This document shows, in pieces, positions 7,826 through 28,230 of a DNA stretch of 41,111 nucleotides. Positions within the stretch are counted from its first letter, which is position 1; the number at the start of each line of letters is the position of its first letter. A model generated the notes under the pieces. That model saw only the letters and a list, made by a program, of their open reading frames with translations, was not told where the DNA came from and searched no databases. Position numbers and translations under genes: made by a program. Location: the IMG/VR virus record IMGVR_UViG_2724679059_000002, positions 1-41,111 of that record, one strand, 5' to 3'. The stretch is from a virus (lineage: Duplodnaviria; Heunggongvirae; Uroviricota; Caudoviricetes).

Positions 7826-7834
7826 TGTGACATG

Positions 7835-8131
7835 TCACGTCCCTTTTCTGAATGATAGCCATTCGAAAAATGATGACATTCCACCGCAGACAATAACAAA
7901 GATGATCCCACCAAAGAAGAGAAGGCCAGCCTGCCACCACTCCCACCGCCATACATCCACAGCGCCAACCATACCAACAATCGCTCCAACAAATGGAATA
8001 TAGCTCACGATGAAAGCAATGGGGGCTGCAATTATCCAGTGCAATCCCCACCATGATTCAAGCCCAGCCATAATTGCTGCCAACTGAAAAAGACCAACGA
8101 CGATATAAACAATGAATCCTATCGCTTGCAT
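7835..8131 (-). CDS. Small integral membrane protein (Trp-rich, 3 predicted TM)
   Basis: 98 aa, strongly hydrophobic; last gene of the ejection-protein operon before the terminator. Confidence 0.5.
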   Translation of the reverse strand: MQAIGFIVYIVVGLFQLAAIMAGLESWWGLHWIIAAPIAFIVSYIPFVGAIVGMVGAVDVWRWEWWQAGLLFFGGIIFVIVCGGMSSFFEWLSFRKGT

Positions 8132-8326
8132 GTAGTCACCTATTTACCCAGTAAAAATCAGAGGCCTCCCCTCAATAAGGCTTGCAACAAGAACTATTCC
8201 CTGCACAACAAAGATGAACCAGCAAATAGCTTGAGTCTGAGGGTTAAGAAAATATTTGTAGCGGTCAATAAATAACAACCCACCAGAAATTATCACACTC
8301 AAAATAATTAAAAACAAAACACTTCC

Positions 8327-10801
8327 TTATTGCGGAGTGACATCCTGAGGTCGCCACCAGTATGTCTGATTAAACTCTTTCTTCGAACGTTGCTCCATTT
8401 TACGCAAATAGCCTGGTGAAAAATACTCCTGCATCTGGTTAAAGATCATATGATCGAGAGCCGCCTTTAAGTACCAGAGATTCGCACCTGGCATCAAACC
8501 TTTCCCCAGCTTCACCAGATCACCACCAGTCTGCTCATTCTTCCCCTCCACAGCATTTAACGGTATGCCCTGAGCAATCTTCACTACGTCATCAACCAGA
8601 CCAGCTACCGGGCCAAGCATCGACGCCAGCGCGCCGCTTCCGTACCTAGTGTGATCTGACAATAAAAAGTCACCGTAAAGGCCAAGACCACCACCTTTCA
8701 GTAGAGCACCAAGCCAGAATTTTGCGGCATCTTCTCCTGTCATATCTCGAGGATTACGACCAGACGCAAGGTCGTTAAGTTGCTGCGACAAAGCGCCAAG
8801 AATGGTCGTACTGGCAATAAACGTCGCAATATATGCCGCACGCCCACCAGCAGACGGCATCCCCATAGCGCGTGACCAGTGGCGCATAACCACCGAGATA
8901 GGGAACGATTTAAACAGGAAAACACTTCTCGTTAATTCACCTTTCCATGTTCCACGCTGAATACCAGAACCGGTTATCAGTTGCTCACGTGCTCCCGGTG
9001 TAATAACAGCCATATCAACTTCTTCAGTTACGGCACCGAGCAGTTTACGCATTGCCTCAAATTTCACGCGTTCAGGCTCACCAAGATGTTTAACTGCTGA
9101 ATCAGGGATACGCATAATGCTTTCCGGTGTCAGCATCGTATTATTACCGTTCCCCCAGTCCTCCTGTTGCGCCAGCTTCCATACGCTCCAGTCTGTGTCA
9201 GTAATCCCTTTGCTTTTCAGGATACGAAAATCAGAGTCATCGAGGCTACGAAGGTCTGGTGTCCGTGACACTACTTCCCCCATGCTTCCCATCATGGTTA
9301 CGCCATAGGCGCGCTTGTGCGCATCTGACCATGCTGTAAGCCCACTGGCACGCATTACAGCCGTTGCCGCCCAACGAGACACTGACGGCCCCATATTATC
9401 CATCGCCCAGCGGTTAACGCTGCCAAGTAGAGATTCCATCGCCAGACCAGCGCGGCGCGCCCGCGCAAGTTCTGTACGGTTCGTTGGGTCCATAGCTTCA
9501 AGCTGGTTGCGGAATAACTGGTTCATTGGAAGGTTGGTCACCTTCGCAGACAGATACATGGTTCCAAGATCAGAGAACGATGATAGCAACGCGGATCCGA
9601 GTCTGCTGGCAACCAGCCAGTTGCGGATATTGTCAGACCATCGCGCGATGTGCGGATTCGCTACAGGCTGTGTCTTTCCGGAAATAAAGTTGTACAGATT
9701 CTCTGTGTTGTTCGCCAGCCGCTCGACTTTACCGGTTTTACTCGGGTTAGCTGTTGCCGTTTCTGCCTTCACCTGATCAAGAAGAGAGCGGAAAACATGA
9801 TCGGGGTTTGGGCCATATGTTTCCACCAGTGCAATATCTTTACTGATACCTTCCAGGTGACCGACCATGATTTCCCATAGAGAGCGATCGCCATAAAGTT
9901 GCTGATATTGCAGATAGGAATCTGCATCTTTGAAATGTATCTGTCGTGATGCATTACCACGGTTAGCACGTGCGCCGGAAATTCGCATTCCGGTATCAGT
10001 AAGCTTATTCAGCCCACCAGTAGCGATCGTGTTATAAGCCTCTCCAAGAAATGCAGACAACTCGGCATCATTCATCAGTTGTCCATCGGCTCGGATATAA
10101 TATTTGCGATCCAGCTTACCTATAACATCGCTAACCCACTTATCCTTTGATACCGCCCCAACCTTTTCCATAGAATGATGTTGAGGGATCCCCCAGTTTT
10201 CGAGATAGCCAATGTCCCCACCAGCATCATTAAACCGGCGGCGCAGTAGATCTGTCACTTCTCTCCACGCCTTAGCACCTTTTCTTGCTTTAGCATTGCC
10301 AGTATTTTGCCCTCGCATTTCATATACCAGGTCACGTACGCCCGCCTCATCTTCAAACAGACCAAAAAAGCGAGGATCAACTGCTTCGAATGCCTCCTGC
10401 AATTGACTCAATGCATAATCACGAGTGGCTTTTGTTCTGGACTCAACAGAGAGGAAATTCGATTTACCGTCTGCATTAAAAGCAATAGTACGGTTAAGAG
10501 CGCCAAGTTTCCCATCAGCCCCTTGATAGCTATTGATAAATTTATCCAATCTCTGACGTGCGGCTATAGTGAGGGCCACACGACGTTTCTTTAATGCCGC
10601 TTCTCGCTGTAATTCTTCAGATGCCAATTGTGCTGCACGATATAGCCGCTCTGATTCGGAAAGTTGTCTCCACGACATCGGGTCATCACGAGCAATGGAG
10701 CGCATATTTCGATAAATGCGGTCTTCAATGTTCTGTATTTCTCGCGCCGTTAACGTGCGCTGCGCCGCCTGCTGGACCGCTTGTATACATTCCTGTCTCA
10801 T
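8327..10801 (-). CDS. Internal virion / ejection protein (large, gp16-like by position)
   Basis: 824 aa; third of three consecutive large proteins downstream of the nozzle gene, matching T7 internal-core gene order. Confidence 0.5.
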   Translation of the reverse strand: MRQECIQAVQQAAQRTLTAREIQNIEDRIYRNMRSIARDDPMSWRQLSESERLYRAAQLASEELQREAALKKRRVALTIAARQRLDKFINSYQGADGKLGALNRTIAFNADGKSNFLSVESRTKATRDYALSQLQEAFEAVDPRFFGLFEDEAGVRDLVYEMRGQNTGNAKARKGAKAWREVTDLLRRRFNDAGGDIGYLENWGIPQHHSMEKVGAVSKDKWVSDVIGKLDRKYYIRADGQLMNDAELSAFLGEAYNTIATGGLNKLTDTGMRISGARANRGNASRQIHFKDADSYLQYQQLYGDRSLWEIMVGHLEGISKDIALVETYGPNPDHVFRSLLDQVKAETATANPSKTGKVERLANNTENLYNFISGKTQPVANPHIARWSDNIRNWLVASRLGSALLSSFSDLGTMYLSAKVTNLPMNQLFRNQLEAMDPTNRTELARARRAGLAMESLLGSVNRWAMDNMGPSVSRWAATAVMRASGLTAWSDAHKRAYGVTMMGSMGEVVSRTPDLRSLDDSDFRILKSKGITDTDWSVWKLAQQEDWGNGNNTMLTPESIMRIPDSAVKHLGEPERVKFEAMRKLLGAVTEEVDMAVITPGAREQLITGSGIQRGTWKGELTRSVFLFKSFPISVVMRHWSRAMGMPSAGGRAAYIATFIASTTILGALSQQLNDLASGRNPRDMTGEDAAKFWLGALLKGGGLGLYGDFLLSDHTRYGSGALASMLGPVAGLVDDVVKIAQGIPLNAVEGKNEQTGGDLVKLGKGLMPGANLWYLKAALDHMIFNQMQEYFSPGYLRKMEQRSKKEFNQTYWWRPQDVTPQ

Positions 10802-10806
10802 TTAAT

Positions 10807-12609
10807 TTAACCTCTCAAGAAACACGCCACAGCGACATCAAACAGGCTGGAATCCTGTATTGCCTGCTCACTTTCCCTGTTCGCTTCATCCAGTACTTCA
10901 CGCGCACTGCGCGATTGTGGATTACCATCATCATCCAGCACGGTGATTATCATGTCCGGAGATTCAAGCAGCGAGTCTTCAGCTATACGCAGATCAATAT
11001 CTCCTGCCGGATCTGCCATCATTTTTTGTTCTGTCTGTTGCAATATCTTACCGGGCTCAAAAGGAGCTACTTCGTCTGGCGTCCTGACCTCTGCTGTTTT
11101 ATAGAATGAAACAGCCTGAGCATTAAGTTCACTTTCTGCCTGCTGTCGTCGTGCCAGTTCTGCTCGAGCTTCAAAAAACTGACCTCCAGGCTCGTGCGGC
11201 GCCAACGCGTTACGAGAAAATTCCAGGCGTTCTTGTGCCTGCCGGATTCGTTGGTCAATATCGCGAAGTCTGGCCTGTTTATCTGATCGAGCACGAGATA
11301 AAGCCTTACCGCTACCGGTTGGCTCTTCTGCAAGAATTTGTGCGCGCTGTTCAGTGAGATTTTCAATAATTCGTTGGCTATTAGCGATTTCAGACTGGTA
11401 AACCTGTCTATCGCCACGCGACAAAAGCTGCGCGGCCTGTTCTTCAAGCAACCGATTTTCTATAGCGCGCGCCGTTACTCCATCATCTACAGATGACAGA
11501 GCCTCATTAACTGCCTGAGATAGCAGACTCTTGCGCCCAGGAATTTCACTGAAAGATGCAGACTCAACAATGCTGGCAACGTCTACAGGTCTCCCCTGGC
11601 TAACATCAGACATGGCTTTTCGCAGAGCCTGAATGTGCGAATTACGCGAAAGCACGTTGATCGGAACGCCGGGAGCAATATCAATTTCAGCATGATGAGC
11701 GGCATTCGCCGCCAGTGCAGCATCAATATCAACTGGTGAAAAATTTGGTGCGCTTGTAGACTCGCCGCGAGAGTTAATAAATCTGCCGACACCACCAAAC
11801 GCCACCCCAAGAACAGCATCAATAGCAATTGCCTGTCGATCCAACACATCATACTGGTTAGCCATTTCGCTATAGCCACCATCACGAAGCGTTTTTGCAG
11901 TAAGCCCACGCTGTGCCATACCGAACGCAATATTTGTACCTGCGGCATAGGCAATATCTGGCGTTGCACGTACTGCTGTTGCTGCGGCGCGTCGCACTGA
12001 ACTCTCACCCGTCCGCGCAAGCTGAGCCGCCACACCTTCCGCCAGCGCACCACCAGCACGTAACCCGAGGCTCATAGGGATCAGTGTTCCGGCACCAGCA
12101 GTAATACCCTGCACTAATCCCGCTTCCTGCGCCGTCCTGAAATCAACACCCTGTGCTGTCAACCGTTCAAACTCAGAAAAACCCTGTAGCGAAGTTACCG
12201 CCGCTGCACCTCCGACAGGACCACCGAGCGTTGTACCAACAACAGCCTGCCCGCCCATATCGAACAACCCATAAAGAACCTGCCCGGCGGTTCCGGTTGT
12301 CGCGGCATCAGGCGTCAGCCGCTTAACCTGCTGCTCTGCTAGTTTTCTCTGCTCGGCAATGTATGAAACTGAAGTATCATTGAGCGAGGTGTTTTCGTTA
12401 ATAAACTGAGCAATCGGGGATACGATTTTATCCATCCCTGCCCATAGCAACTGATCTGGCTTTGCCACCAGCCCGGAGTACAAACCAGACAATGCCGCTC
12501 CTACAGCATTGTCGAAAAAACCAACATCGCTGTTAAAGCCCGCTGGATTTGATGCTGCTTCGTCAAGTTGCTGATTCTGATTTACTGGATTAAGGCCAAA
12601 GTAACTCAT
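10807..12609 (-). CDS. Internal virion / ejection protein
   Basis: 600 aa, Gly/Ala-rich central region; synteny within the structural operon. Confidence 0.5.
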   Translation of the reverse strand: MSYFGLNPVNQNQQLDEAASNPAGFNSDVGFFDNAVGAALSGLYSGLVAKPDQLLWAGMDKIVSPIAQFINENTSLNDTSVSYIAEQRKLAEQQVKRLTPDAATTGTAGQVLYGLFDMGGQAVVGTTLGGPVGGAAAVTSLQGFSEFERLTAQGVDFRTAQEAGLVQGITAGAGTLIPMSLGLRAGGALAEGVAAQLARTGESSVRRAAATAVRATPDIAYAAGTNIAFGMAQRGLTAKTLRDGGYSEMANQYDVLDRQAIAIDAVLGVAFGGVGRFINSRGESTSAPNFSPVDIDAALAANAAHHAEIDIAPGVPINVLSRNSHIQALRKAMSDVSQGRPVDVASIVESASFSEIPGRKSLLSQAVNEALSSVDDGVTARAIENRLLEEQAAQLLSRGDRQVYQSEIANSQRIIENLTEQRAQILAEEPTGSGKALSRARSDKQARLRDIDQRIRQAQERLEFSRNALAPHEPGGQFFEARAELARRQQAESELNAQAVSFYKTAEVRTPDEVAPFEPGKILQQTEQKMMADPAGDIDLRIAEDSLLESPDMIITVLDDDGNPQSRSAREVLDEANRESEQAIQDSSLFDVAVACFLRG

Positions 12610-15194
12610 TGCGGAATATCTCCGGAGAATCTCTGACGCTTCTGTGTCAGATCAAGAACAACAGGAGAACCATCATCTTTCAGCAGATAACCAGTACCAA
12701 GTTTCACCAGGTACTGACTATCGCCGTAACTTTGCAAACCATACTGACCAGGCGGTGTTTTTATCCCGGTGCCGACCACTTGTTCATTCCAAGCCTGATC
12801 AACCTGCTTATCGAATTGCTCTGCAGACATTCCCCACGGCAAAAGGACATTCCCCATTCCGTTATAGTCATGCACGCCACCTGTAGCTACGTTAACAGCC
12901 TGCTTCCAGATATCAGTGTCAATTTCGCCTGATATCACGCCTTTTTTCGCCATCACACCAGCGTAATAGTCCTTTGCGATCTCGTATGCCATTGATGCCC
13001 CCTGAGCATCACCAGCAAATGCATCCTTCACCATGTCAGAAAACTCAAGGCGAAGATCAGCATCTTTAGGCATCGGAATACCTTTCGCATCATCAGTACC
13101 TTTACGAGCCGCCGCGCCAGTAAGAATTGTCTGCGCAGCGGTTTCAGGAGACACGGAAACATCCGGATTAAACCAGTTTTTTTCTGCCAAAATACCACCT
13201 GGCTTATCCATCAGTATCCCGGCAACGGCAGCAGATGGAGCGTTGGCACTGATCTGCTGTAGTGCTGACATATACACCTGCCCACCACCAGTGCTCTGCC
13301 TGATGGTATCGAGATATGCTGCCTGTTGGGAAACGGGCGCATCACGAAAGAAAACACCGATCTGATTGGCCTCGTCTTTGGAAAAGAACGTCAGTGGAGT
13401 GCCATATGACTTAGCAAGGTCACTGACCTGAGCAGCACGCAAGGCAACGCTCTGTCCAAAGTTATCCTTATTGCTCATGTCGATAGGCTTTGCCTGTCCG
13501 GCGGCAAGAGAGAACTGTACAGGATCAGCCTGTCGCTGCTTTATCACCTGACTTGCAGCCGACACAACGTTGTCATAAAGAGCGGCTCGTGCCGCATAAC
13601 CCTCCCCTGTCTCACCAGTATCCGGGCGTAATTGCTCAACATATGCTGTAATGCTGCTTGTCGGCATGTTGCGGAAAGAGCCTATATACTGTCCGGCGAT
13701 TTGCGTATTTCTGAACTCGGTATATCGCAGGTTTCCTTCTCTGACTCCATAAGCTGCAATAAAATCAGCCTCACCAGGTGGGTTAGGAAATTCAACGCCA
13801 CGCATATACGCAGCTGTCGCATCGCGAACCTGGCTGTCAATCATCGTTTTATATTCAGCCTGCTGCTGCCGACGCAGTTGATCCGCCTGTCGCATAAAAC
13901 TTGCCTGCGCCTCAGGAGATGCCGCATCGAATGCTGCATTACCGGTATAGCGTTTGGTGTTGGTTGGAATTGTTGATAAACCAAGTGCTGCACTGACACC
14001 AGCAGTTAACTGCTGATCACTGTATGGCTGGCTACCGTTCTCATGATGGATAATGGCTGCACAAAGCGCCTTCAGGGTATCAGGATTAGATGCATCGAGA
14101 GGCTCATCAGCAGAAACGCCAAGTTGTTCGCACACTGCTTTGATATACGACATAGTGTCATTTTTATCAGCAGGCGGTGCCCAGCGATTAATTATCTCGC
14201 TGACGGTATCAATACCCTGCCTCTGATACGACATCAGGTTCCGCCCTAATGCACGAATCCCGTGTTCAGGTGTTTCGAATTTAGCAAATCGACCATCATC
14301 ACCGGTCTGGCCTACCCACGGATTAGTTTTGCTGTATTCGAGATTTCCTGGGTTATTGTTGCGTATGCCACGGGCACGCTCGGAAGAGTCACTATCTGCT
14401 ACAGCACGGCGAGCTCCAGCAGCAGTATCACTTAACTCGCCATTACTTTGGATGAATGCGGTCGCATTGTTTGCCGACCACTGGGACAATGCAGCATCAG
14501 CAACCTTCTCTTTAAACTCGATTTTCTTGGCCTGGATTTGCTCGTTGCTCCAGCCATGTGCAACACCGTACTCCTCAATTTGCTGGAAAGTTTGCTTGTT
14601 AGCCAATACGTATGCGGCGTTGTCGCCATACAATGCTGCGGCATTTTTACCATTGTTCAGCAGTGTCGCCTGAAACTGGCCTTCTTCGTAGGCATTAATT
14701 TGCCCTATCTCGTGTCGCCCGGCCTGCGTAGTGAACTGAATGCGCTGCTGCTGCGCCTGCTGCATGAAAGCATTACGAGCCTGTTCATCCGGCAGCGACA
14801 TAGCCAGTTGTTCGACCTGAGCATCAAACTGCTGCGTATACTCATGGCCTTTTCCAATAGCATTTTTCCCTTTCAGGTTAAGCAATCCTGTTTCAGGATT
14901 ATTCAGCAGATCGCTGCTTATCTGACTGAGGTTAAGAGATGCCTCCTGAGCCAGAGCGATATTGGCACGCTGTTTTGCCTGACCAAAAACATCAATTGCC
15001 TCTGTCCCTGCCCGAACAAAAGCATCACCAATACCTGGCTGAGAAAACGTCTGCAAGCCTGCTGACTGAACCCCACGGCTCTGAACCTGACGGCCGGATA
15101 CTGTTGGTACGACTGGCATTATAATCCTCCGGGTAATCTGGTTCCTGCTGCTGCCCCGATTGGCGCAGGAGTGCTTTGAGTAAACGGACTCCAC
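12606..15194 (-). CDS. Internal virion / ejection protein (gp15-like by position)
   Basis: 862 aa; synteny; start overlaps the upstream 181-aa gene. Confidence 0.5.
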   Translation of the reverse strand: MESVYSKHSCANRGSSRNQITRRIIMPVVPTVSGRQVQSRGVQSAGLQTFSQPGIGDAFVRAGTEAIDVFGQAKQRANIALAQEASLNLSQISSDLLNNPETGLLNLKGKNAIGKGHEYTQQFDAQVEQLAMSLPDEQARNAFMQQAQQQRIQFTTQAGRHEIGQINAYEEGQFQATLLNNGKNAAALYGDNAAYVLANKQTFQQIEEYGVAHGWSNEQIQAKKIEFKEKVADAALSQWSANNATAFIQSNGELSDTAAGARRAVADSDSSERARGIRNNNPGNLEYSKTNPWVGQTGDDGRFAKFETPEHGIRALGRNLMSYQRQGIDTVSEIINRWAPPADKNDTMSYIKAVCEQLGVSADEPLDASNPDTLKALCAAIIHHENGSQPYSDQQLTAGVSAALGLSTIPTNTKRYTGNAAFDAASPEAQASFMRQADQLRRQQQAEYKTMIDSQVRDATAAYMRGVEFPNPPGEADFIAAYGVREGNLRYTEFRNTQIAGQYIGSFRNMPTSSITAYVEQLRPDTGETGEGYAARAALYDNVVSAASQVIKQRQADPVQFSLAAGQAKPIDMSNKDNFGQSVALRAAQVSDLAKSYGTPLTFFSKDEANQIGVFFRDAPVSQQAAYLDTIRQSTGGGQVYMSALQQISANAPSAAVAGILMDKPGGILAEKNWFNPDVSVSPETAAQTILTGAAARKGTDDAKGIPMPKDADLRLEFSDMVKDAFAGDAQGASMAYEIAKDYYAGVMAKKGVISGEIDTDIWKQAVNVATGGVHDYNGMGNVLLPWGMSAEQFDKQVDQAWNEQVVGTGIKTPPGQYGLQSYGDSQYLVKLGTGYLLKDDGSPVVLDLTQKRQRFSGDIPQ

Positions 15195-20361: not shown

Positions 20362-20412
20362 CTTCTTTCTCCATTAGTGGGTCTGTTACGACCCACAGGT
20401 TAATAACAGGCG

Positions 20413-21405: not shown

Positions 21406-21413
21406 TTCCTCTC

Positions 21414-22115: not shown

Positions 22116-22408
22116 TCCTGTTCACTGGCCTCTTTGGCCATCTTCAAATACTGTTCAGGGCAATGCGCCATAACGCGCTGAAACAGTTCCAGCGCCAGAT
22201 TGCGTTGCCCCTCATTAAATGCCATTGCCATAGCGTCCATCGGTGAGATAGCGGAAAACACACGGCCTTTCTCCAGCACCGACCAGACAACGCGACGCCC
22301 CTGTTCACTGCTCATGACAAAGCGAATGTCATCAATTTCACGCTGTGCCATGTCACGTTGCTTACGGGCGTTTTCTTCTTTCAGTTGATCATCTTCGTAA
22401 TCTGTCAT
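22112..22408 (-). CDS. Hypothetical small protein between portal and scaffold
   Basis: 98-aa ORF with coupled stop/start to neighbours. Confidence 0.4.
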   Translation of the reverse strand: MTDYEDDQLKEENARKQRDMAQREIDDIRFVMSSEQGRRVVWSVLEKGRVFSAISPMDAMAMAFNEGQRNLALELFQRVMAHCPEQYLKMAKEASEQE

Positions 22409-23043: not shown

Positions 23044-24083
23044 ATCTGCTGTACTGGGGTTAACCAGATAAGCAGGCCTGAAGCCATCCTGACCAGTATC
23101 TGATCGATATACGTGATGTCGCCAGGAAGAAGGGAGGCGCGCTGATTCTTGAGGGAAGTCGGAGCAACCATCGGCGGATTGGTGGCTTTATCAATCAACT
23201 GCGACTTGCGCTTCTGGAGAAGCTGCAATGCCTTAACAGGTCCAAGCGCCAGCATACCAGGGCATGATGATCCATAAACATCTTCGCCGTTAACTTCCCA
23301 GCGCGGAGCCATAATTGGAAACTCATCGAATCCGGACTCACGCAACAACTTGTCGTTATCGCCACCAACCTCGTAATAAACCGATTTGAATGGCTTGTTC
23401 TTGCTATCCAGCTTCGATGTATCGCGGTCAATGTTCGGGTAAACCGAATGCATCACTTCAATCCACTTCTCGTAGGTGCCGCTTTCCCACATGCTTTTTA
23501 CGGATTCGCTGACGTTATTTAGCCCGAACTCCTGAACAAGCTGACGAACAGTCATAGAGAACTTGCGAAAACAGGTGTCCACACTGCCACGAGGTGAGTT
23601 AGCCAGGTAGTAACTGCCTATCGGGAATGGCATTGTGCGAATGATGTCCTCGTCATCCTCCAGCACTGCCATTGCACCAGTGCTGTATGTGCCGAGGCTT
23701 CCGTATAACTGCGGCAGCGACTGGTAGAGATTCGACTTATTGAACATATCGTTCATGCGGTTCTGCACCGCCTCAAGCCACAACTTAACAGGGCCATAAT
23801 CCATCATTTCAGGATCTGGCGTAGCCAGGCGAAACCACGGACGCGCGGGGCTTGTGATGCCTGACATCATGCCGCTGGCGAGAGTGCGCGCCGCCATAGT
23901 CCCGGTCGAATCAATAATGCGTGTATTGCGCCGATCGTTACGGTTGACCTCAGAAGTCAGAAAGCGGGAACCACGCGGGTTGATGTAATCACTCAACTCG
24001 CGCCAGTGCGGCTCGAACGACTGACGCTCGCTTTCAAGTTGTGCGAACTGTTTGTTCAATCGCTCTTTGGTTGTTTCCGCCAT
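22977..24083 (-). CDS. Portal (head-tail connector) protein, N-terminal part
   Basis: 368-aa ORF with RBS ggag; immediately follows terminase (across the tRNA/moron insert); joined with 22405..23043 gives ~560 aa, typical T7-type portal size. Confidence 0.6.
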   Translation of the reverse strand: MAETTKERLNKQFAQLESERQSFEPHWRELSDYINPRGSRFLTSEVNRNDRRNTRIIDSTGTMAARTLASGMMSGITSPARPWFRLATPDPEMMDYGPVKLWLEAVQNRMNDMFNKSNLYQSLPQLYGSLGTYSTGAMAVLEDDEDIIRTMPFPIGSYYLANSPRGSVDTCFRKFSMTVRQLVQEFGLNNVSESVKSMWESGTYEKWIEVMHSVYPNIDRDTSKLDSKNKPFKSVYYEVGGDNDKLLRESGFDEFPIMAPRWEVNGEDVYGSSCPGMLALGPVKALQLLQKRKSQLIDKATNPPMVAPTSLKNQRASLLPGDITYIDQILVRMASGLLIWLTPVQQIWWQTFRTLVKSLTAPTLSICS

Positions 24084-24097
24084 TTCAATGACTCCGG

Positions 24098-24304
24098 TTA
24101 CTGACCAAGTAGCGTTTTACCGCTGGTATTAGCGGTTGATGTGTCGCCCTGAGAACCGGTAAGCAGCGTAGAACTACGACCAGCAGCAGCGCGACGGCGA
24201 CGAGTTTCTTCGTCGCGGGCATCAACAACGGCGGCATCCTGCTCCTGTGGTGCTGCCTGAACTTCTGGTGTTGCAGGCACTGACGGTGAGCTACCCATGC
24301 ACAT
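24098..24304 (-). CDS. Small hypothetical protein upstream of portal
   Basis: 68 aa, RBS ggag, stop overlaps the portal start region. Confidence 0.35.
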   Translation of the reverse strand: MCMGSSPSVPATPEVQAAPQEQDAAVVDARDEETRRRRAAAGRSSTLLTGSQGDTSTANTSGKTLLGQ

Positions 24305-24372
24305 ATCAATGACTCCGTACGCAATTAAATTATTACCAATTTAACCATATATGATTTATTTATCGTAGATAG

Positions 24373-24409
24373 TTGACATTTAACGCACAAATTATTACCT
24401 TTCAGGTAA
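24373..24409 (+). promoter_or_regulatory. Candidate promoter (TTGACA -35) with overlapping operator TTACC-TTTCA-GGTAA, directed toward the tRNA and moron
   Basis: Perfect TTGACA at 24373-24378; operator at 24395-24409; same architecture as the promoter at 36105-36147 and sequence similarity to 5285-5350. Confidence 0.4.
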
Positions 24410-24731
24410 CCAAAGAGTTCATTCCGGTTACTAACCTGACTGGCTTGTCGTTAAATTGAACAGGTGGAGTGAGCTTTTATTTTGAGCAGTACGGCGTATG
24501 GCACATGCTACGATAGCGGTCTGGATACGTTTAAGGGGCACCCTCCCTTGCTCGGGCAAACGAACCAGGTAGCCGGAATGTGCAAGTCGAGCGGTTTTAT
24601 TCCGCGCACGGGGATTCACCATCCCGGCGATTCGGTGTGACGCCTCGGAAGAGACGAGGGTACAACGATGAGAGCATTTATGGAGCCGCGACAAAGTGTG
24701 GCGCCTTAACAGGCTAAGTGCTCTCAGCGTT

Positions 24732-24808
24732 GTGGCATTAGCTCAGTTGGACAGAGCAACCGCCTTCTAAGCGGTTGGTCGCAGGTTCGAATCCTGCATG
24801 CCACGCCA
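24732..24808 (+). tRNA. tRNA-Arg (anticodon UCU), phage-encoded
   Basis: Full cloverleaf: acceptor GUGGCAU/AUGCCAC, D-arm gctc-agttggaca-gagc, anticodon stem accgc/gcggt with loop cuUCUaa, T-arm gcagg-ttcgaat-cctgc, discriminator G and encoded CCA; close to E. coli argU in the arms. Confidence 0.9.
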
Positions 24809-24851
24809 GAATCACGCCTAAGGACCGTGATGCCAGAAGTTCCAGGCGCTT

Positions 24852-24893
24852 GGCGGTGATAGTTTCCCTTGAAGGACTATCACCGCCCTTTTT
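24852..24893 (+). terminator. Intrinsic terminator after the tRNA
   Basis: 12-bp stem ggcggtgatagt / actatcaccgcc followed by cttttt. Confidence 0.7.
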
Positions 24894-24923
24894 ACAGCAG
24901 GACGCCATTGCGATGACTTCATG

Positions 24924-24939
24924 CTGTAAACCCGTACAG
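24924..24939. promoter_or_regulatory. Weak LexA-box-like motif
   Basis: CTGT-aaacccgt-ACAG fits CTGT-N8-ACAG but the spacer is not AT-rich. Confidence 0.25.
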
Positions 24940-24971
24940 CCACGGAAGGCATAACTCATTGCTTCCAGTTC

Positions 24972-24994
24972 GCCCGGTTCGCCGGGCATTTTTT
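24972..24994 (+). terminator. Hairpin plus U-tract 12 nt upstream of the moron start (terminator or attenuator)
   Basis: gcccgg-ttcg-ccgggc followed by attttttaagg, then RBS aggtga and ATG at 25006. Confidence 0.45.
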
Positions 24995-25005
24995 AAGGTG
25001 AGATC

Positions 25006-25425
25006 ATGAAGACAATTGATATGTTGGCTAAGTATCTAAATGAATGGCCATTAAAATATTCTCGTATCGTTCAGGCTGAAGACTGCATTTTTTATGGCGT
25101 TTTTGCTGGTAATGAAATGCATTACGAAGTAATTCAGAGTGAGGGACTGGCCGGGTTAACTCTTAGCGAAGACCATGGTACTAGCGTTACGTTCCATGAC
25201 TGGATAACAGCACAACGTTCTGAAATGGAAAAAGGCGATGTTTTTGATATTTCTCGCGCTGTTTACGCTAAAGCAAAAAGTGATAATGATTACATGAGCG
25301 AACACTTATACAACATGAAGTTACAATGCCTGCATGCGGCGCTTATTCAGAATGGGCACTTCGATAAAACAAGTGCCATCAATATTGCGGAAGCCATCAA
25401 CGCTGGATTTAATGCCATTAAGTAA
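25006..25425 (+). CDS. Moron gene of unknown function (AT-rich, opposite strand to the flanking late genes)
   Basis: 139-aa ORF with RBS aggtga; between terminase and portal on the opposite strand; flanked by terminators on both sides; no recognisable domain by eye. Confidence 0.6.
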   Translation: MKTIDMLAKYLNEWPLKYSRIVQAEDCIFYGVFAGNEMHYEVIQSEGLAGLTLSEDHGTSVTFHDWITAQRSEMEKGDVFDISRAVYAKAKSDNDYMSEHLYNMKLQCLHAALIQNGHFDKTSAINIAEAINAGFNAIK

Positions 25426-25445
25426 CACCGTGACATGTCACAAAC

Positions 25446-25475
25446 AGCCAGCCGATGAGCTGGCTTTGTTTTATC
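25446..25475 (+). terminator. Intrinsic terminator after moron gene
   Basis: cagccagc-cgatga-gctggct hairpin followed by ttgtttta. Confidence 0.45.
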
Positions 25476-25515
25476 CTCATCAGAGGATATCAACGACATT
25501 ATCCCCACCAGCGGA

Positions 25516-26991
25516 TTAAGCATATGGATCGTAATCTGTGATGGCCTTGCCTTGCTGGTTCTGCTGCCCGGGAATTCGCAGACGCTTCGACACAGGGAAC
25601 GCAAACGTCAGCAGTAGCGCATCGCCTTTACCAGGAGAACGCCCAAGCCGCTCCTTGATATCTTCCTTCGGTTCGATAACGATTTTACCGTCCACTCGAA
25701 CTTTGTACTCTGCCGCAGACAGGTCGTCCGCTGTTTCCTGGTCATCCAGCATGCCGCCCAGCCTCAGCCATGTCTTGCATGAGTTGAACATCTCCCCACG
25801 CTTGTTGAGCATCTGCGGGTCAGTAGACGCGCCACCGAACGGAACAAGTTGCCATGTACGACCCCAGCCATCACCGATTGACTTCAGACCAGTTCCGTAA
25901 CCGAAGTCGATGAACACTGCGTCAGCCTGGTACCGGTCTTCAAAGTCAGCGATACGCTTCGCCATAATCAGATCGTCAGTGGTCTTGTTGCCAGTCCACA
26001 GCACCTTACTGTGCAGCCCCTGCCGCAGGTATATCACAGCGTCATCAACGCCGGAGTATGCCGGGTCAACGCCGATTATCACCGGAGCATGTGCAACCTG
26101 CGCAGCGGTTACCACCCGTTTCATTGCCTCGTCAGTAAGGCCGGTAGGGATAAACTGCAATTCAGATGCATCCGGGAATATGCCGCGCACACGGATTTTA
26201 ACGAAGTCGCTGTCTTCCCCGTAGTCATCAACCCATTTCTGCAACTGCTGTTTGTTAGTGCCTTCCACCGTCCGGCTGTCAATCTGCGCAGTTTTCCAGC
26301 GGTGTTTATATTTGCGGAAACATTCGCGAAAACGCCCGGTGTTACGTGTAGGGTTTCCGAACGCCACCCAGATAATCTCAGTGTCTTCGTCCGTAAGCGC
26401 ACCCTCAGCAACTTCCCACACCAGATCCGCAATGTTCGACGCTTCATCGAATACCACGATGATGCGTTTGCGCTCGTTGTGTAGTCCGGCGAATGCCTCA
26501 GTGTTGTGCTCAGACCAGGGTATTGCGTCAGCCCGCCACCGCTTGTCGTGCCCAGGGTCATTGCTGTACATCGCGGTAGCGGTACAGGTAAACCAGTCTT
26601 TCGTGATAGCAAGGTTCGACCACTTGATAATTTCCGGCCAGGTCTTCGTTCGTAGCTGGTTGTCGGTGTTGGCGGTCACCACGACCTTACAATCCTCGCA
26701 AGTGGACATGCCCCAGTTGATCAGCATTGAGATGAATGCGGATTTACCAATACCGTGACCAGAAGCGCGTGCCAACATAAGCGGCTGATAGCGCGTCTCT
26801 GGATTCTGCAGGTGATCACGTATCTCTCGGAACGCATCAGCCTGCCACTGACGTGGGCCGGTAGCATGTGCCAGTTCAGTCCCCTCTTCCCCCCACGGGA
26901 ACGCATAGAGGGCATAGCCAAGCGGATCGTGAGTGAACCCTGCAATATCCTCGATTAACTGCTCTTCAGGAGATAACGCTGTATCTGTCAC
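25516..26991 (-). CDS. Terminase large subunit
   Basis: 491 aa; Walker A-like GHGIGKS; acidic nuclease-type motifs in the C-terminal half; positioned between terS and portal. Confidence 0.8.
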   Translation of the reverse strand: MTDTALSPEEQLIEDIAGFTHDPLGYALYAFPWGEEGTELAHATGPRQWQADAFREIRDHLQNPETRYQPLMLARASGHGIGKSAFISMLINWGMSTCEDCKVVVTANTDNQLRTKTWPEIIKWSNLAITKDWFTCTATAMYSNDPGHDKRWRADAIPWSEHNTEAFAGLHNERKRIIVVFDEASNIADLVWEVAEGALTDEDTEIIWVAFGNPTRNTGRFRECFRKYKHRWKTAQIDSRTVEGTNKQQLQKWVDDYGEDSDFVKIRVRGIFPDASELQFIPTGLTDEAMKRVVTAAQVAHAPVIIGVDPAYSGVDDAVIYLRQGLHSKVLWTGNKTTDDLIMAKRIADFEDRYQADAVFIDFGYGTGLKSIGDGWGRTWQLVPFGGASTDPQMLNKRGEMFNSCKTWLRLGGMLDDQETADDLSAAEYKVRVDGKIVIEPKEDIKERLGRSPGKGDALLLTFAFPVSKRLRIPGQQNQQGKAITDYDPYA

Positions 26992-27584
26992 TGATTACCA
27001 TCCTGACGTTCTTTGAGTCGCTTCCTGGCTGCTGCTATGCGATCAGCAATTGTCACATTCACATTAACATCCAGGCGTTCTTTGAATGCGTTGACGTCGA
27101 CGTGCTTACCAATCAGTTCGAGGTTCTTCACCTTGTCAGGCCATTTAATTTTTTTGAGGATTGTCTCTATCGAATCCTCGTTCATGTTCATGATGGTCGA
27201 TGACAGATCAAAGCCGCTAAGCGTAGTGCGCCAGATTTTCGGCCACTCGCGGATTGGCTTAAGGCTCCCATCGTCGTTGAGGATGTCGATCACGTCCATC
27301 TGGTCGATCTCCACCAGGCGCATGAGAACGTAATCAGCACTGACGCGCATTCGTTTGTTGCGCTCCTCCATCAACTCGGCAATCCGTTTCTGAATGCGTT
27401 CATCGCGCATCATGACACTGGCTTTAACTGCCGCTGTATTTGGGGAGAATCCTGCGTTAATCGCAGCCTGAGTCTGATTTTCAGGCGTTTTGATGTATGA
27501 CTGGCAATAAGCCTCCTGCATTGCTGTTAGTGGCTTAAATTGCGTTGATTTGCGTTTATAGGTTTTAGGTTCAGCAGGCATCAT
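26988..27584 (-). CDS. Terminase small subunit (P27-family-like)
   Basis: Immediately upstream of and overlapping terL; start assigned to internal ATG-ATG at 27584 (track ORF begins at a TTG at 27662). Confidence 0.6.
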   Translation of the reverse strand: MMPAEPKTYKRKSTQFKPLTAMQEAYCQSYIKTPENQTQAAINAGFSPNTAAVKASVMMRDERIQKRIAELMEERNKRMRVSADYVLMRLVEIDQMDVIDILNDDGSLKPIREWPKIWRTTLSGFDLSSTIMNMNEDSIETILKKIKWPDKVKNLELIGKHVDVNAFKERLDVNVNVTIADRIAAARKRLKERQDGNQ

Positions 27585-27658
27585 AACCACCGTGGTAATA
27601 GTTACCGTTGTGGTAATAGTACCATGCAAAATAAAGCCGCCATAGTTGGCGGCAGTAT

Positions 27659-27871
27659 TCAAAGTCCATCAAATTCATCGTAAAAACTCTCGTCAAGATA
27701 CCCTTTCCATTTACCGCGAATGAAAATTACATCCTCGCCGCAAGGGTGCTGACTGTCGATAACTATATCCCTCCTGGCGCAACCATACTTATGCATGAGA
27801 AATTTAACCTCTTTCGGAAAATTAGCTGAGTTATCTCTCATATCTTCAAGGTCGTAGCGTATTTTTGGCAT
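27659..27871 (-). CDS. Hypothetical small protein upstream of terS
   Basis: Start set to ATG at 27871 (MPKIRYD...) with RBS gaaggtg; the palindrome GTGACATGTCAC lies immediately upstream. Confidence 0.4.
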   Translation of the reverse strand: MPKIRYDLEDMRDNSANFPKEVKFLMHKYGCARRDIVIDSQHPCGEDVIFIRGKWKGYLDESFYDEFDGL

Positions 27872-27888
27872 AACACCTTCGTGACATG

Positions 27889-28230
27889 TCACACTATTAA
27901 TTTCGTTTCATGCCAGCCTTTGGTCACCCAGCATTGCGAGTCACCATTACACGGGCATGAATTAACTGGAACTCTCTCGCCGCACTTACCGCAACGTTTT
28001 CTGCTGATCGATTTTATACGCCCGCGCACCCGGGCATCATCCTGGCGGATCAGCAGCGCGATGTACTCGGCCATTTCATAGGGATCTCGACCAGGGCGCC
28101 GGGCGGCGCAGTTACGCTCCAGCATTTCAATTTCCTGAGCATCAAGCACAATCTCCAGCTTACGCACACCAGATGCAGCTTGTCTGGCTCTCTGAGCGGC
28201 TTTGCGCTCTGCTGCTGATTTAGCCATCAA
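27889..28230 (-). CDS. Hypothetical protein with C-terminal Cys cluster (possible zinc-binding regulator)
   Basis: 113 aa; C-terminus CGKCGERVPVNSCPCNGDSQC; basic, helical N-terminus. Confidence 0.4.
   Translation of the reverse strand: MMAKSAAERKAAQRARQAASGVRKLEIVLDAQEIEMLERNCAARRPGRDPYEMAEYIALLIRQDDARVRGRIKSISRKRCGKCGERVPVNSCPCNGDSQCWVTKGWHETKLIV

What the first reader, a model, noticed from the sequence alone, without database searches (positions are those of the whole stretch)
7827..27892. Perfect 12-bp palindrome GTGACATGTCAC present three times at module junctions
Copies at 7827-7838 (right edge of the moron cassette, overlapping the stop of the 98-aa membrane-protein gene), 25430-25441 (just after the tRNA-associated moron) and 27881-27892 (immediately upstream of the RBS of the 77-aa gene before terS). 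Three exact copies of a 12-mer in 41 kb is far beyond chance. Their placement at boundaries of inserted modules suggests a regulator binding site or a recombination/insertion hotspot.
Basis: seen in the sequence. Interest (0 to 1): 0.5.

Follow-up and report, generated by a model that had tools for sequence, protein, structure and literature searches.

The report
Conserved operator of a phage RHH protein
The thrice-repeated 12-bp palindrome is a real, strongly conserved DNA signal of epsilon15-like prophages. It is most likely the binding site of a small uncharacterised ribbon-helix-helix protein whose own stop codon lies inside one copy, and the same gene-plus-site pair recurs in unrelated phages such as N15.

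Summary
In detail: GTGACATGTCAC occurs exactly three times (7827, 25430, 27881), against 0.01 expected.

The window is an epsilon15-like (Uetakevirus) prophage with its late genes on the minus strand. The same 12-mer sits at the same three places in epsilon15, SPN1S and Tyrion; phiV10, 65FD and BUCT711 keep two of the three exact. Flanks are only 75-82% identical or unrelated.
- Site A overlaps the stop codon of a 113-aa gene just upstream of terS.
- Site B lies next to the terminator after terL.
- Site C abuts the terminator that ends the structural operon.

Each site borders a variable gene slot.

The 113-aa protein has no Pfam family. Its AlphaFold model (pLDDT 90) has a ribbon-helix-helix DNA-binding core, followed by a Cys-rich tail.

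Homologues in N15-like telomere phages and other prophages also have GTGAC-NN-GTCAC at or beside their stop codon. All copies within one genome share a central dinucleotide that changes between lineages (AT, TG, CT, CG, GC, GT).

The palindrome is therefore most likely this protein's operator. What it does (transcription gate or roadblock at operon ends, antitermination, or DNA bridging) is inferred, not shown. It is not the CI-type repressor operator and not a 13-bp matS site. The recombination-hotspot idea is not supported.

The parts
27881..27892 (.). PAL-A: palindrome GTGACATGTCAC. On the late (minus) strand, its bases 2-4 are the TGA stop of the 113-aa RHH gene, and it ends 9 nt before the ATG of the next small gene.
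   Evidence: Exact in 78 of 80 IMG/VR relatives. Exact in eps15, SPN1S, Tyrion, 65FD, BUCT711 and L084; phiV10 has a 1-mismatch copy here.
27889..28230 (-). Gene for the 113-aa protein 'p55' (the phiV10p55 / epsilon15 gp49 / N15 gp46 family, PHROG 536). It has a ribbon-helix-helix core and a C-terminal CxxC...C...C module, and is the proposed binder of the palindrome.
27659..27871 (-). Small gene (70 aa from the ATG; listed as a 77-aa ORF from a GTG inside PAL-A) that fills the variable slot after PAL-A. Many relatives carry only an 8-codon in-frame remnant here.
   Evidence: PHROG 1541.
27636..27653 (-). Terminator-like hairpin GCCGCCAACTATGGCGGC followed by TTTATTTTG, downstream of PAL-A and upstream of the terS coding region proper.
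   Evidence: The homologous stem-loop is annotated as a rho-independent terminator in epsilon15.
27602..27616 (.). CI-type (Rep) operator TTACCGTTGTGGTAA just upstream of terS. It is a different motif from the palindrome.
   Evidence: Epsilon15 annotates ATTACC-N5-GGTAAT repressor sites at the homologous places.
25516..26991 (-). Large terminase gene. Its unit ends at the hairpin plus PAL-B.
25446..25475 (+). Intrinsic terminator (hairpin 25446-25465 followed by TTGTTTTATC), oriented to stop the + strand cargo transcript. No canonical terminator was scored here in the late direction.
   Evidence: fold.
25430..25441 (.). PAL-B: the palindrome between the stop of the cargo gene (TAA-CACC-PAL) and the terminator hairpin.
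   Evidence: At least 8 unrelated cargo genes end 4 nt from it. It is degenerate or lost in about a quarter of relatives.
24732..25425 (+). Variable cargo slot after PAL-B: tRNA-Arg(TCT) at 24732-24808 and a 139-aa gene of unknown function at 25006-25425, both transcribed towards PAL-B.
   Evidence: (PHROG 4846).
22345..22356 (.). One-mismatch copy (GTGACATGGCAC on the late strand) inside the Bbp19-like gene. It may be a weak site or a coincidence.
   Evidence: Conserved in E. coli relatives but absent from Tyrion and SPN1S.
7835..8131 (-). Last gene of the structural operon (98-aa membrane protein). Its TGA lies inside PAL-C.
   Evidence: PHROG 3075.
7827..7838 (.). PAL-C: the palindrome directly abutting the terminator that ends the structural operon.
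   Evidence: In a 7-genome alignment, only PAL and the terminator stem are invariant, between mosaic flanks.
7799..7826 (-). Intrinsic terminator AGGCCGCTTTCGCGGCCT followed by TGTTTTTAAC, for the late (minus-strand) transcript.
   Evidence: fold. Annotated as a terminator in phiV10 and epsilon15.

Best explanation
GTGACATGTCAC is the cognate DNA site (operator) of the small phage protein encoded at 27889..28230(-). This protein has a ribbon-helix-helix core and a Cys-rich C-terminal module, and I call it p55 (the epsilon15 gp49 / N15 gp46 family).

A p55 dimer would place its two-stranded beta-sheet in the major groove over the dyad. The GTGAC half-sites are family-wide. The central dinucleotide sets lineage specificity.

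In epsilon15-like phages the three sites sit at the 3' ends of three consecutive rightward transcription units:
- the early-right operon, which ends with p55 itself;
- the terS-terL unit;
- the portal-to-last-structural-gene unit.

Each site lies next to an intrinsic terminator and in front of a variable gene slot.

My proposed mechanism is that p55 accumulates during lytic growth, occupies these sites, and acts on RNA polymerase there as a gate or roadblock. At site A it would limit its own synthesis and read-through into the next unit, because its stop codon lies inside the site. At B and C it would reinforce the boundary between the late units and the oppositely oriented cargo genes.

What is shown:
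- the motif, its conservation and its positions;
- the RHH fold of the model;
- the gene-site linkage and the co-variation.

What is inferred:
- that p55 binds the site (my estimate ~0.7);
- that the effect is a transcriptional gate or roadblock rather than something else (my estimate ~0.3).
For: 1. Non-chance. Three exact copies against 0.01 expected.

2. Selection.
- Exact at all three homologous places in epsilon15, SPN1S and Tyrion.
- Exact at A and C in 65FD and BUCT711; exact at B and C in phiV10, whose A copy has one mismatch.
- Flanks diverge immediately.
- At C, only PAL and the terminator stem are invariant among 7 genomes, between unrelated flanking genes.
- The last codon of p55 varies (V/L/M/A). 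Where the DNA was read (GTG, TTG, CTG) it ends in G, which preserves base 1 of the motif.
- In a Klebsiella prophage the site is kept even though 190 nt have been inserted between it and the stop codon.

3. The protein is a DNA binder by fold.
- AF2 pLDDT 89.7.

4. The gene-site module recurs in other phage types.
- N15 and 49 N15-like loci have GTGACTGGTCAC on the gp46 stop codon in the same register, plus copies in repA and upstream of the ant operon.
- L144 has GTGACCTGTCAC and L145 has GTGACCGGTCAC on the stop.
- L150 has the exact palindrome 1 nt after a TAG stop.
- L278 has GTAACGCGTCAC 2 nt after the stop and GGGACGCGTCAC 318 nt further on.

5. Co-variation.
- Telomere phage L272 has a homologue that is 54% identical to p55. 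It carries three exact GTGACATGTCAC copies, including one at the repA position where N15 has GTGACTGGTCAC.
- 1.41 Mb of Uetakevirus loci hold 133 AT-type and 0 TG-type sites. 0.88 Mb of N15-like loci hold 101 TG/CA-type and 0 AT-type.

6. It is not the CI/Rep operator. Those read TTACC-N5-GGTAA.

7. Position next to terminators. PAL lies 0-10 nt before the terminator at C, 4 nt from the hairpin at B, and upstream of a terminator at A.
Against: - No binding experiment or protein-DNA model exists. The link between p55 and the site is genetic and comparative only.
- Some homologues have no detectable site within 10 kb: L143 (P2-like), L146, and L274 (a short contig).
- Two homologues lack a site at the stop codon and have one only in repA: L148 and L276.
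- Site B is lost or mutated in about a quarter of relatives, so it is dispensable.
- Site positions are heterogeneous: operon 3' ends, inside repA, inside a mazE-like gene, about -66 of a predicted promoter in N15, and inside a virion gene in BUCT711. This fits a simple gate model less well than a position-independent (architectural) role.
- p55 lies at the distal end of an operon that is presumably repressed in lysogens, so it could not insulate cargo transcription during lysogeny.
- A 12-bp site is somewhat long for a single RHH beta-sheet. The contribution of the N-terminal basic helix is conjecture.
Confidence: 0.45

Rival explanations
1. Antitermination loading site. p55 binds the palindrome and modifies RNA polymerase as it passes, in the manner of Q or RfaH. 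Polymerase from the early-right promoter then reads through the terminators after A and C, and across the cargo slots, into terS-terL, the structural genes and the tailspike.
For: - The p55 gene sits immediately upstream of its first site and of the late genes, as the lambda Q gene does relative to qut (own knowledge).
- In the late direction the palindrome always precedes the nearest canonical terminator at A and C. At B no late-direction terminator was scored.
- The family profile has a weak match (E 0.08) to TraR and YbiI, which are DksA-type Zn-finger proteins that bind RNA polymerase.
Against: - No promoter or pause element accompanies the palindrome.
- Rep operators lie just upstream of terS, the portal unit and the tailspike unit. 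This suggests these units have their own promoters.
- N15-like phages already encode a Q protein for late genes, yet keep the p55 homologue and its sites, one of them inside repA.
- The TraR match is below significance, and Pfam's zf-dskA_traR family was not hit.
Confidence: 0.15
2. Architectural or bridging sites. p55 bound at a few dispersed sites pairs or clusters them, in the manner of MatP/matS or of RHH centromere-binding proteins such as ParG or omega. This would organise the phage DNA for replication, packaging or segregation rather than regulate particular genes.
For: - The copy number is about three in Uetakeviruses and in two telomere-phage lineages, although the positions differ.
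- BUCT711 lost site B but has a new exact copy inside a virion gene.
- Sites occur inside coding sequences, where gene regulation is less obvious.
Against: - No partner ATPase or other partition-like gene is linked to p55.
- Uetakeviruses integrate and do not need partition.
- Telomere phages already have Sop/Par systems with their own GGACCANGGTCC sites.
- L144 and L145 show a single site within 20 kb.
- About 12 of 80 relatives lack B, with no replacement seen within 10 kb.
- No oligomerisation evidence exists.
Confidence: 0.1
3. Host-factor site. The palindrome is recognised by a conserved enterobacterial protein, for example MatP binding a matS-like site one base pair short, and the link to p55 is only common descent.
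For: - The half-sites GTGAC/GTCAC are those of matS, GTGAC[AG]N[TC]GTCAC.
- All named hosts and sources seen (where the record names an organism) are Enterobacteriaceae.
- The half-sites stay constant while the centre varies, as in matS.
Against: - The spacing is 2 nt, not 3, and no 13-bp matS occurs in the window or in 4.0 Mb of related loci.
- All copies within one genome share the central dinucleotide, and it switches with the p55 lineage, even at the homologous repA position. A common host factor that ignores the centre would not require this.
- The site follows the p55 gene into at least six lineages.
Confidence: 0.07
4. Recombination or mosaic-joint sequence. The palindrome is a hotspot or short linker at which cargo modules are exchanged or inserted.
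For: - All three copies border variable slots.
- At least 8 unrelated cargo genes abut PAL-B within 4-7 nt.
- Both flanks of the PAL-C-plus-terminator island are mosaic.
Against: - The joints at B fall at the cargo stop codons, not inside the palindrome.
- The other end of each slot has no palindrome.
- The polymorphism at A is an internal in-frame deletion.
- About 12 relatives replaced the whole spacer, terminator and PAL-B, starting directly at the terL stop.
- The homologous sites in telomere phages lie inside a conserved gene with no joint.
- No dedicated recombinase is linked.
- Conservation of a functional island between freely exchangeable flanks explains the same pattern.
Confidence: 0.07
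5. RNA-level element. The transcribed palindrome forms a small hairpin that affects mRNA processing or stability, or translation of the next gene.
For: - All copies are transcribed.
- At A (and in N15 and L272) the site lies directly before a ribosome-binding site.
- At B and C it stacks next to a terminator hairpin.
Against: - Only a 4-5 bp stem with a 3-4 nt loop can form. Folding energies of the regions are unremarkable (z -1.2 to -2.6), and the palindrome pairs differently in each context.
- Strict conservation of all 12 bases with no compensatory changes, and copies inside coding sequences on either strand, fit a DNA site better.
Confidence: 0.04

Closest known systems
Phage ribbon-helix-helix repressors and their operators (P22 Arc and Mnt; CopG/MetJ superfamily)
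   Same: - A short dyad-symmetric DNA site present in a few copies.
- Expected binding as a dimer through a beta-sheet in the major groove (family knowledge).
   Different: - No sequence family match in Pfam or NCBIfam.
- It carries an extra N-terminal basic helix and a C-terminal CxxC...C...C module.
- The sites do not overlap promoters. They lie at gene or operon 3' ends, on the regulator's own stop codon, or inside coding sequences.
- One 12-bp site would take a single dimer, rather than the two dimers on a 21-bp Arc operator (own knowledge).
MatP / matS of E. coli (Ter macrodomain organiser)
   Same: - Identical GTGAC/GTCAC half-sites in inverted orientation.
- Few, dispersed sites, with positions that are not tied to promoters.
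   Different: - matS is 13 bp (GTGAC-RNY-GTCAC) and the phage site is 12 bp. No 13-mer is present.
- There is no detectable sequence homology between p55 and MatP (hhalign probability below 1%).
- p55 lacks MatP's four-helix bundle.
- matS is reported absent from prophages.
Stoperators of cluster A mycobacteriophages (L5, Bxb1)
   Same: Short repressor-binding sites dispersed through a temperate phage genome, in short intergenic gaps at gene or operon borders, thought to stop elongating polymerase (own knowledge).
   Different: - Stoperators are asymmetric, orientation-dependent, number about 20-30 per genome, and are bound by the immunity repressor (own knowledge).
- Here the site is a perfect palindrome with 3 copies. 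It differs from the Rep/CI operators of the same phage, and the proposed binder is a lytic-cycle protein.
Lambda Q / qut and other DNA-loaded antiterminators
   Same: The regulator gene lies immediately upstream of its DNA site, which is followed by a terminator and the late genes.
   Different: - No promoter or sigma-dependent pause is embedded with the site.
- p55 is unrelated to the Q families, and N15-like phages have both Q and the p55 homologue.
- The other copies lie at operon ends and inside genes.
DksA/TraR-type zinc-finger proteins (F TraR, E. coli YbiI)
   Same: A long helix followed by a CxxCG..(I/L)P....C zinc-binding motif. This is the best, though weak, sequence match in the PDB (E 0.08).
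   Different: - The match is below significance.
- The second CxxC pair of the family is not conserved.
- TraR and DksA do not bind DNA and have no RHH domain (own knowledge).

Membership tests
Ribbon-helix-helix (CopG/Arc/MetJ) DNA-binding proteins with dyad operators | Beta-strand / helix / helix core fold | tested here: met
   [not shown]
Ribbon-helix-helix (CopG/Arc/MetJ) DNA-binding proteins with dyad operators | Sequence membership in a curated RHH family | tested here: not met
   No Pfam family at E<=0.01. Only scattered sub-threshold RHH_1, RHH_5 and RepB-RCR_reg hits, each in 1-2 of 36 members. NCBIfam PRK11675 scores E 0.055, below its cut-off.
Ribbon-helix-helix (CopG/Arc/MetJ) DNA-binding proteins with dyad operators | Specific binding of a dimer to the dyad-symmetric site | not testable with these tools
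   Supported only indirectly, by gene-site linkage and co-variation.
matS sites bound by MatP | 13-bp motif GTGAC[AG]N[TC]GTCAC | tested here: not met
   The site is 12 bp with a 2-nt spacer. There are no 13-bp matches in the window or in 4.0 Mb of loci. The motif definition comes from PMC3603311.
matS sites bound by MatP | Binder homologous to MatP | tested here: not met
   hhalign of the p55 family against E. coli MatP gives probability 0.2-0.5%. The only shared feature is the RHH fold.
CI/Rep operators of epsilon15-like phages | Motif ATTACC-N5-GGTAAT, as annotated in epsilon15 | tested here: not met
   The window has nine TTACC-N5-GGTAA sites, at other positions. The epsilon15 annotation does not mark the palindrome.
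Mycobacteriophage-type stoperators | Asymmetric, orientation-dependent sites of the immunity repressor, tens of copies per genome | tested here: not met
   The site is a perfect palindrome with three copies, and its motif differs from the immunity operators.
Q-type antitermination sites (qut/QBE) | The site is embedded in a late promoter with a promoter-proximal pause | tested here: not met
   No sigma-70-like promoter was scored around PAL-A or PAL-B in the late direction. At PAL-C, and in the epsilon15-type sequence at A, the GTGACA half can be read as a weak -35, but this is not conserved in the E. coli phages.
Intrinsic terminators | G+C-rich hairpin followed by a U-tract | tested here: not met
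   The palindrome itself forms only a 4-5 bp stem and has no U-tract. It lies next to true terminator-like hairpins at 7809-7826(-), 25446-25465(+) and 27636-27653(-).
DksA/TraR C4 zinc-finger proteins | Significant match to the family, and two CxxC pairs | tested here: inconclusive
   The best PDB sequence hits are TraR and YbiI at E 0.08-0.16. Only C80, C83 and C100 are invariant in the family. There is no Pfam PF01258 hit.
Sop/Par centromere repeats of telomere phages | GGACCA[CT]GGTCC inverted repeats | tested here: not met
   Those repeats occur separately, in 3-7 copies, in L148 and L272, and differ from the GTGAC-NN-GTCAC sites.

The most novel reading that the evidence does not exclude
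The p55 family and its GTGAC-NN-GTCAC sites form a previously unrecognised portable 'gene plus 3'-embedded operator' system, shared by unrelated temperate phages (epsilon15-like podoviruses, N15-like telomere phages, lambdoid prophages).

In this reading, an RHH protein fused to an RNA-polymerase-contacting zinc module acts on elongating polymerase at a handful of defined DNA positions: its own stop codon, operon ends, and inside repA. That would make it a DNA-site-specific elongation or termination switch, as opposed to a promoter-bound repressor. The matS-like half-sites set one base pair closer would keep it orthogonal to host MatP.
Probability: 0.15. Interest if true: 0.8.

Novelty: new variant of a known kind. 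Interest (0 to 1): 0.55.

Why it matters
If the assignment is right, it names the function of a widespread protein family that has no Pfam family and, as far as I could find, no experimental study. The family has 181 clusters at 50% identity and occurs in hundreds of Enterobacteriaceae prophages.

It also identifies a cis-element that marks the borders of the late transcription units and the cargo ('moron') slots in epsilon15-like phages. These phages include O-antigen-converting phages of Salmonella and E. coli O157 phages used for typing and detection.

An operator that overlaps its regulator's stop codon, with further copies at operon 3' ends and inside a replication gene, is an unusual layout. 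It may point to regulation of elongating polymerase as opposed to initiation.

Practically, the palindrome plus terminator gives defined, conserved landmarks for inserting payloads into these phages. The central dinucleotide suggests a simple specificity code that could be tested and re-engineered.

Tried and rejected
1. Chance or simple shared descent. Rejected by shuffles, by invariance amid diverged or unrelated flanks, and by recurrence in unrelated phages.

2. CI/Rep operator. Rejected: the immunity-region repeats and the epsilon15 annotation give TTACC-N5-GGTAA instead.

3. Packaging (pac/cos) site.
- This was prompted by the phiV10 and Tyrion records being opened inside PAL-A.
- It was judged an annotation convention, since the records start after the gp49 stop.
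- N15, whose cos site is known, has its homologous sites elsewhere.

4. Promoter. The GTGACA half resembles a -35, but no conserved -10 follows in the E. coli phages.

5. A fourth site at the end of the lysis operon. SPN1S has a 1-mismatch copy and epsilon15 a 2-mismatch copy on the Rz stop, but the window's homologous sequence is diverged.

6. Homology of p55 to MatP. None was found.

7. First AF2 model from close homologues only. Confidence was low (pLDDT 65) and the Foldseek result was meaningless. Using the diverse alignment A4 solved this.

8. Literature.
- The 12-mer string gives no hit in 8 million papers.
- The epsilon15 genome paper could not be retrieved by three identifiers, so I cannot exclude that it mentions the repeat.
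- The ZX5 paper does not discuss terminators or late genes.

9. Collection scan with the degenerate 14-mer. Host-genome background frequency was therefore not measured.

10. SlmA-binding site GTGAGTACTCAC (from memory). It shares only the outer GTGA/TCAC and was not pursued.

11. GTGACCCGTCAC copies in some Uetakevirus tail-fibre genes. These are coding coincidences of an RDPS motif.

Full report
**Observation**

An exact search finds GTGACATGTCAC at 7827-7838, 25430-25441 and 27881-27892 and nowhere else. Dinucleotide-preserving shuffles expect 0.01 copies. Allowing mismatches adds only GTGCCATGTCAC at 22345, inside a gene. The looser pattern GTGAC-N0-6-GTCAC returns the same three sites.

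**What the window is**

BLAST against phage genomes shows an epsilon15-like (Uetakevirus) prophage close to phiV10.

- Integrase lies at the right end, and the lysis genes with a GDSL tailspike lie at the left.
- The late genes run on the minus strand from about 27.9 kb down to 7.8 kb.

Read in that direction, the three sites sit as follows.

- **Site A** overlaps the TGA of a 113-aa gene (27889..28230). This gene is the homologue of phiV10p55 and epsilon15 gp49, and I call its product p55. The site ends 9 nt before the ATG of a small gene. A terminator-like hairpin (27653-27636), a Rep-type operator (27602-27616), terS and terL follow.
- **Site B** lies just beyond the hairpin after terL. It is 4 nt from the stop codon of an oppositely oriented 139-aa cargo gene that sits next to tRNA-Arg. 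The hairpin scores as a terminator only for the cargo direction.
- **Site C** overlaps the TGA of the last structural-operon gene (a 98-aa membrane protein). It directly abuts the terminator AGGCCGCTTTCGCGGCCT-TGTTTTT.

**Conservation**

Exact copies at the three homologous places in complete genomes:

| Genome | Site A | Site B | Site C |
|---|---|---|---|
| epsilon15 | exact | exact | exact |
| SPN1S | exact | exact | exact |
| Tyrion | exact | exact | exact |
| phiV10 | one mismatch, split by the record ends | exact | exact |
| 65FD | exact | one mismatch | exact |
| BUCT711 | exact | lost | exact, plus a new exact copy inside a virion gene |

These genomes are only 75-82% identical to the window in coding DNA, and the bases next to the 12-mer differ.

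In a 7-genome alignment of site C, the only invariant columns in the region are the 12-mer and the terminator stem. They lie between at least three unrelated upstream genes and at least three kinds of downstream sequence.

In 80 IMG/VR relatives:

- Site A is exact in 78.
- Site B is exact in about 58, carries a single mismatch in about 10, and is absent in about 12. In those 12, AT-rich cargo starts right at the terL stop.

The last residue of p55 varies (V, L, M, A). Where I read the DNA (GTG, TTG, CTG), its codon ends in G, which is base 1 of the motif. In a Klebsiella prophage, 190 nt separate the stop codon from the palindrome, yet the palindrome is retained.

The DNA motif itself is therefore under selection. 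Sites A and C are the core copies, and B is dispensable.

**Module junctions**

- **Site B.** At least eight unrelated cargo genes, all on the opposite strand, end with their stop codon 4 nt from the palindrome, in the order TAA-CACC-PAL-AAACA-hairpin-TTTGTTTTAT.
- **Site A.** The slot holds the small gene, an 8-codon in-frame remnant of it, a different 109-aa gene (Klebsiella), or nothing (epsilon15).
- **Site C.** The slot holds Bro-N antirepressor-like and YafO-like genes in the window.

In epsilon15 and in the window, a Rep operator lies downstream of each slot. The layout is therefore: unit end, palindrome, variable slot, Rep operator, next unit.

The joints do not fall inside the palindrome, the slots have no second copy at their far end, and the polymorphism at A is an internal deletion. 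The pattern is what a functionally constrained island between exchangeable flanks would give. It does not call for a recombination site.

**What it is not**

- **The CI/Rep operator.** That motif is TTACC-N5-GGTAA.
- **A promoter.** No conserved -10 follows.
- **A terminator or a convincing RNA structure.** Only a 4-5 bp stem forms, and folding energies are unremarkable.
- **matS.** matS is a 13-bp motif, GTGAC[AG]N[TC]GTCAC. No 13-mer occurs in the window or in 4.0 Mb of related loci.

The epsilon15 GenBank annotation lists repressor, IHF, RNase III and terminator features but not this repeat. The 12-mer string appears in none of the searchable papers.

**The linked protein**

- p55 has no Pfam or NCBIfam family. 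It belongs to PHROG 536, named 'transcriptional regulator'.
- A sensitive search finds 181 clusters at 50% identity.
- The family alignment shows, in order: an N-terminal basic helix (ERKxAQRxR), a short strand, a helix, RRPGxxPY, a long helix (EYIxLLIRxD), and a CxxCG..LP..C..G...CW module.
- With this diverse alignment, AlphaFold gives a confident model (pLDDT 89.7).
- By sequence, p55 is not related to MatP.
- The C-terminal half gives only a weak match to the RNA-polymerase-binding zinc-finger proteins TraR and YbiI (E 0.08). I treat that as a lead only.

**Gene-site linkage beyond this genus**

The epsilon15 annotation notes similarity of gp49 to N15 gp46. Findings in the other lineages:

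| Lineage (locus, homologue) | Site at or beside the stop codon | Other sites in the genome |
|---|---|---|
| N15 | GTGACTGGTCAC on the gp46 TGA, same register | same 12-mer inside repA; its reverse complement about 33 bp upstream of the -35 of the predicted ant-operon promoter |
| 49 N15-like IMG/VR loci | stop-codon copy in all 49 | repA copy in 44 of 49 loci; the 5 without it have too little upstream sequence. It stays invariant amid synonymous variation |
| L144 (lambdoid prophage) | GTGACCTGTCAC on the stop | none found within 10 kb |
| L145 (beside a resolvase) | GTGACCGGTCAC on the stop, followed by a terminator-like hairpin | none found within 10 kb |
| L150 | exact GTGACATGTCAC 1 nt after a TAG stop | contig ends |
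| L278 | GTAACGCGTCAC 2 nt after the stop | GGGACGCGTCAC 318 nt further on |
| L148 and L276 (telomere phages) | none | site only in repA |
| L143 (P2-like), L146, L274 (short contig) | none | none detected |

**Co-variation**

Telomere phage L272 has the N15 gene order: protelomerase, a 1338-aa RepA, CB, Cro and Q. Its p55 homologue is 54% identical to the window's. It carries three exact GTGACATGTCAC copies:

- one on its own stop codon;
- one inside a mazE-like gene;
- one at the very repA position where N15 has GTGACTGGTCAC.

The RepA residue encoded at that position changes (S, C or R) to fit the motif.

L276 has GTGACGTGTCAC and its reverse complement at that repA position.

Reciprocal counts:

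| Set of loci | Size | AT-type sites | TG/CA-type sites |
|---|---|---|---|
| Uetakevirus | 1.41 Mb | 133 | 0 |
| N15-like | 0.88 Mb | 0 | 101 |

All copies in one genome thus share a central dinucleotide that switches with the protein lineage, while the GTGAC half-sites stay constant. The predicted beta-strand also differs between the groups: K-x-E-x in the AT-type proteins and R-R-D in the TG-type proteins. This difference is suggestive only.

This is the main argument that the p55 family, and not a common host factor, reads the site.

**Mechanism**

The p55-site pairing is well supported but indirect (my estimate is 0.7). What binding achieves is inferred.

I favour a transcriptional gate or roadblock at unit ends:

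- At A, a site that covers the regulator's own stop codon would let accumulating p55 curb both its own mRNA and read-through into the next unit.
- At B and C, the site lies against terminator hairpins at convergent junctions with cargo genes. At both, it lies on the side of the hairpin that lacks the U-tract.
- Intragenic repA and mazE-like sites in telomere phages are easier to understand as roadblocks than as activator sites.

The alternatives are:

- a Q-like or RfaH-like loading site for antitermination (the gene lies just upstream of its site, a terminator and the late genes; weak TraR-like tail);
- an architectural, MatP- or ParG-like role (about three dispersed copies at changing positions);
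- a host-factor site;
- a recombination linker;
- an RNA element.

Each is weighed in the rival-explanations section. None can be excluded without experiments.

**Novelty and verdict**

An RHH regulator with a dyad operator is a known kind of system. Three things are new here:

- the protein family, which has no Pfam family and no study I could find;
- the operator embedded in or beside the regulator's stop codon;
- further copies at operon 3' ends and inside a replication gene, conserved across unrelated temperate phages, with a lineage-specific central dinucleotide.

I rate it a new variant of a known kind, of moderate interest (0.55).

Its 'regulator binding site' reading is supported, and its 'recombination hotspot' reading is not.

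Noticed in passing
window 5716, 6776, 24395, 27602, 33017, 33079, 35360, 36071, 36133: Nine TTACC-N5-GGTAA sites against 0.07 expected. They match the CI/Rep operators annotated in epsilon15. Besides the immunity region, they lie upstream of terS, of the portal unit, and in the antirepressor/tailspike region. The immunity repressor may therefore control or block the late units directly.
   Followed up: partly
window 26988-27662 (-): The longest terS ORF (TTG start at 27662) contains a terminator-like hairpin (27653-27636) and a Rep operator (27602-27616). The true terS start is probably downstream of them, as in epsilon15.
   Followed up: no
window 24732-24808 (+) and 24738-24989 (-): tRNA-Arg(TCT) lies on the strand opposite to the late genes. 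It overlaps an 83-aa ORF (the homologue of phiV10 p04) that is therefore probably not a real gene.
   Followed up: no
window 5985-6710 (+), 6978-7550 (+): The variable slot next to site C carries a Bro-N antirepressor-like gene and a gene with a YafO-toxin domain. Both are transcribed towards the end of the structural operon.
   Followed up: no
window 22345-22356: A one-mismatch copy of the palindrome lies inside the Bbp19-like gene. It is conserved in most E. coli relatives but absent from Tyrion and SPN1S, so it could be a weak extra site or a coincidence.
   Followed up: partly
window 27659-27871 (-); loci L004-L083: The small gene after site A is present in about 30 of 80 relatives. In the rest it is replaced by an 8-codon in-frame remnant (MHDEFDGF*) that keeps the same start codon and the same C-terminal codons.
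   Followed up: yes
L001 (phiV10) record ends; L002 (Tyrion) record ends: Both GenBank records are opened inside site A: phiV10 at GTGA|CATGTTAC, and Tyrion exactly at the dyad, GTGACA|TGTCAC. This looks like the convention of starting after the gp49 stop codon. It means the site is split and invisible in linear searches of these records.
   Followed up: partly
L092 (N15) 33237 and 28550; L272 at 6647 and 2073; L276 at 1272 and 1304: Telomere phages keep a p55-type site inside the repA coding sequence, with the encoded residue changing (S/C/R) to fit the lineage's central dinucleotide. Further copies lie upstream of the N15 antirepressor-operon promoter and inside a mazE-like gene.
   Followed up: partly
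L148 and L272/L273: GGACCA[CT]GGTCC inverted repeats occur 3-7 times per locus in telomere phages. From my own knowledge these are presumably the SopB-type centromere sites known from N15. They are distinct from the GTGAC-NN-GTCAC sites.
   Followed up: no
L003 (SPN1S) 26722; L091 (epsilon15) 26618; window ~1285: Salmonella relatives have a degenerate copy (1-2 mismatches) overlapping the stop codon of the Rz spanin gene at the end of the lysis operon. The window's homologous sequence has diverged.
   Followed up: yes
loci L019, L034, L038, L044, L045, L054, L056, L066, L067, L080 (just after terL): In about 12 relatives, AT-rich foreign DNA begins directly at the terL stop codon and replaces the spacer, terminator and site B. 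These may be larger accessory or defence cargo; the content was not examined.
   Followed up: no
window 1-1070: The left flank encodes a glycine-zipper/TraT-like lipoprotein and a DUF5384 protein. I did not establish whether these are host genes or prophage-end morons.
   Followed up: no
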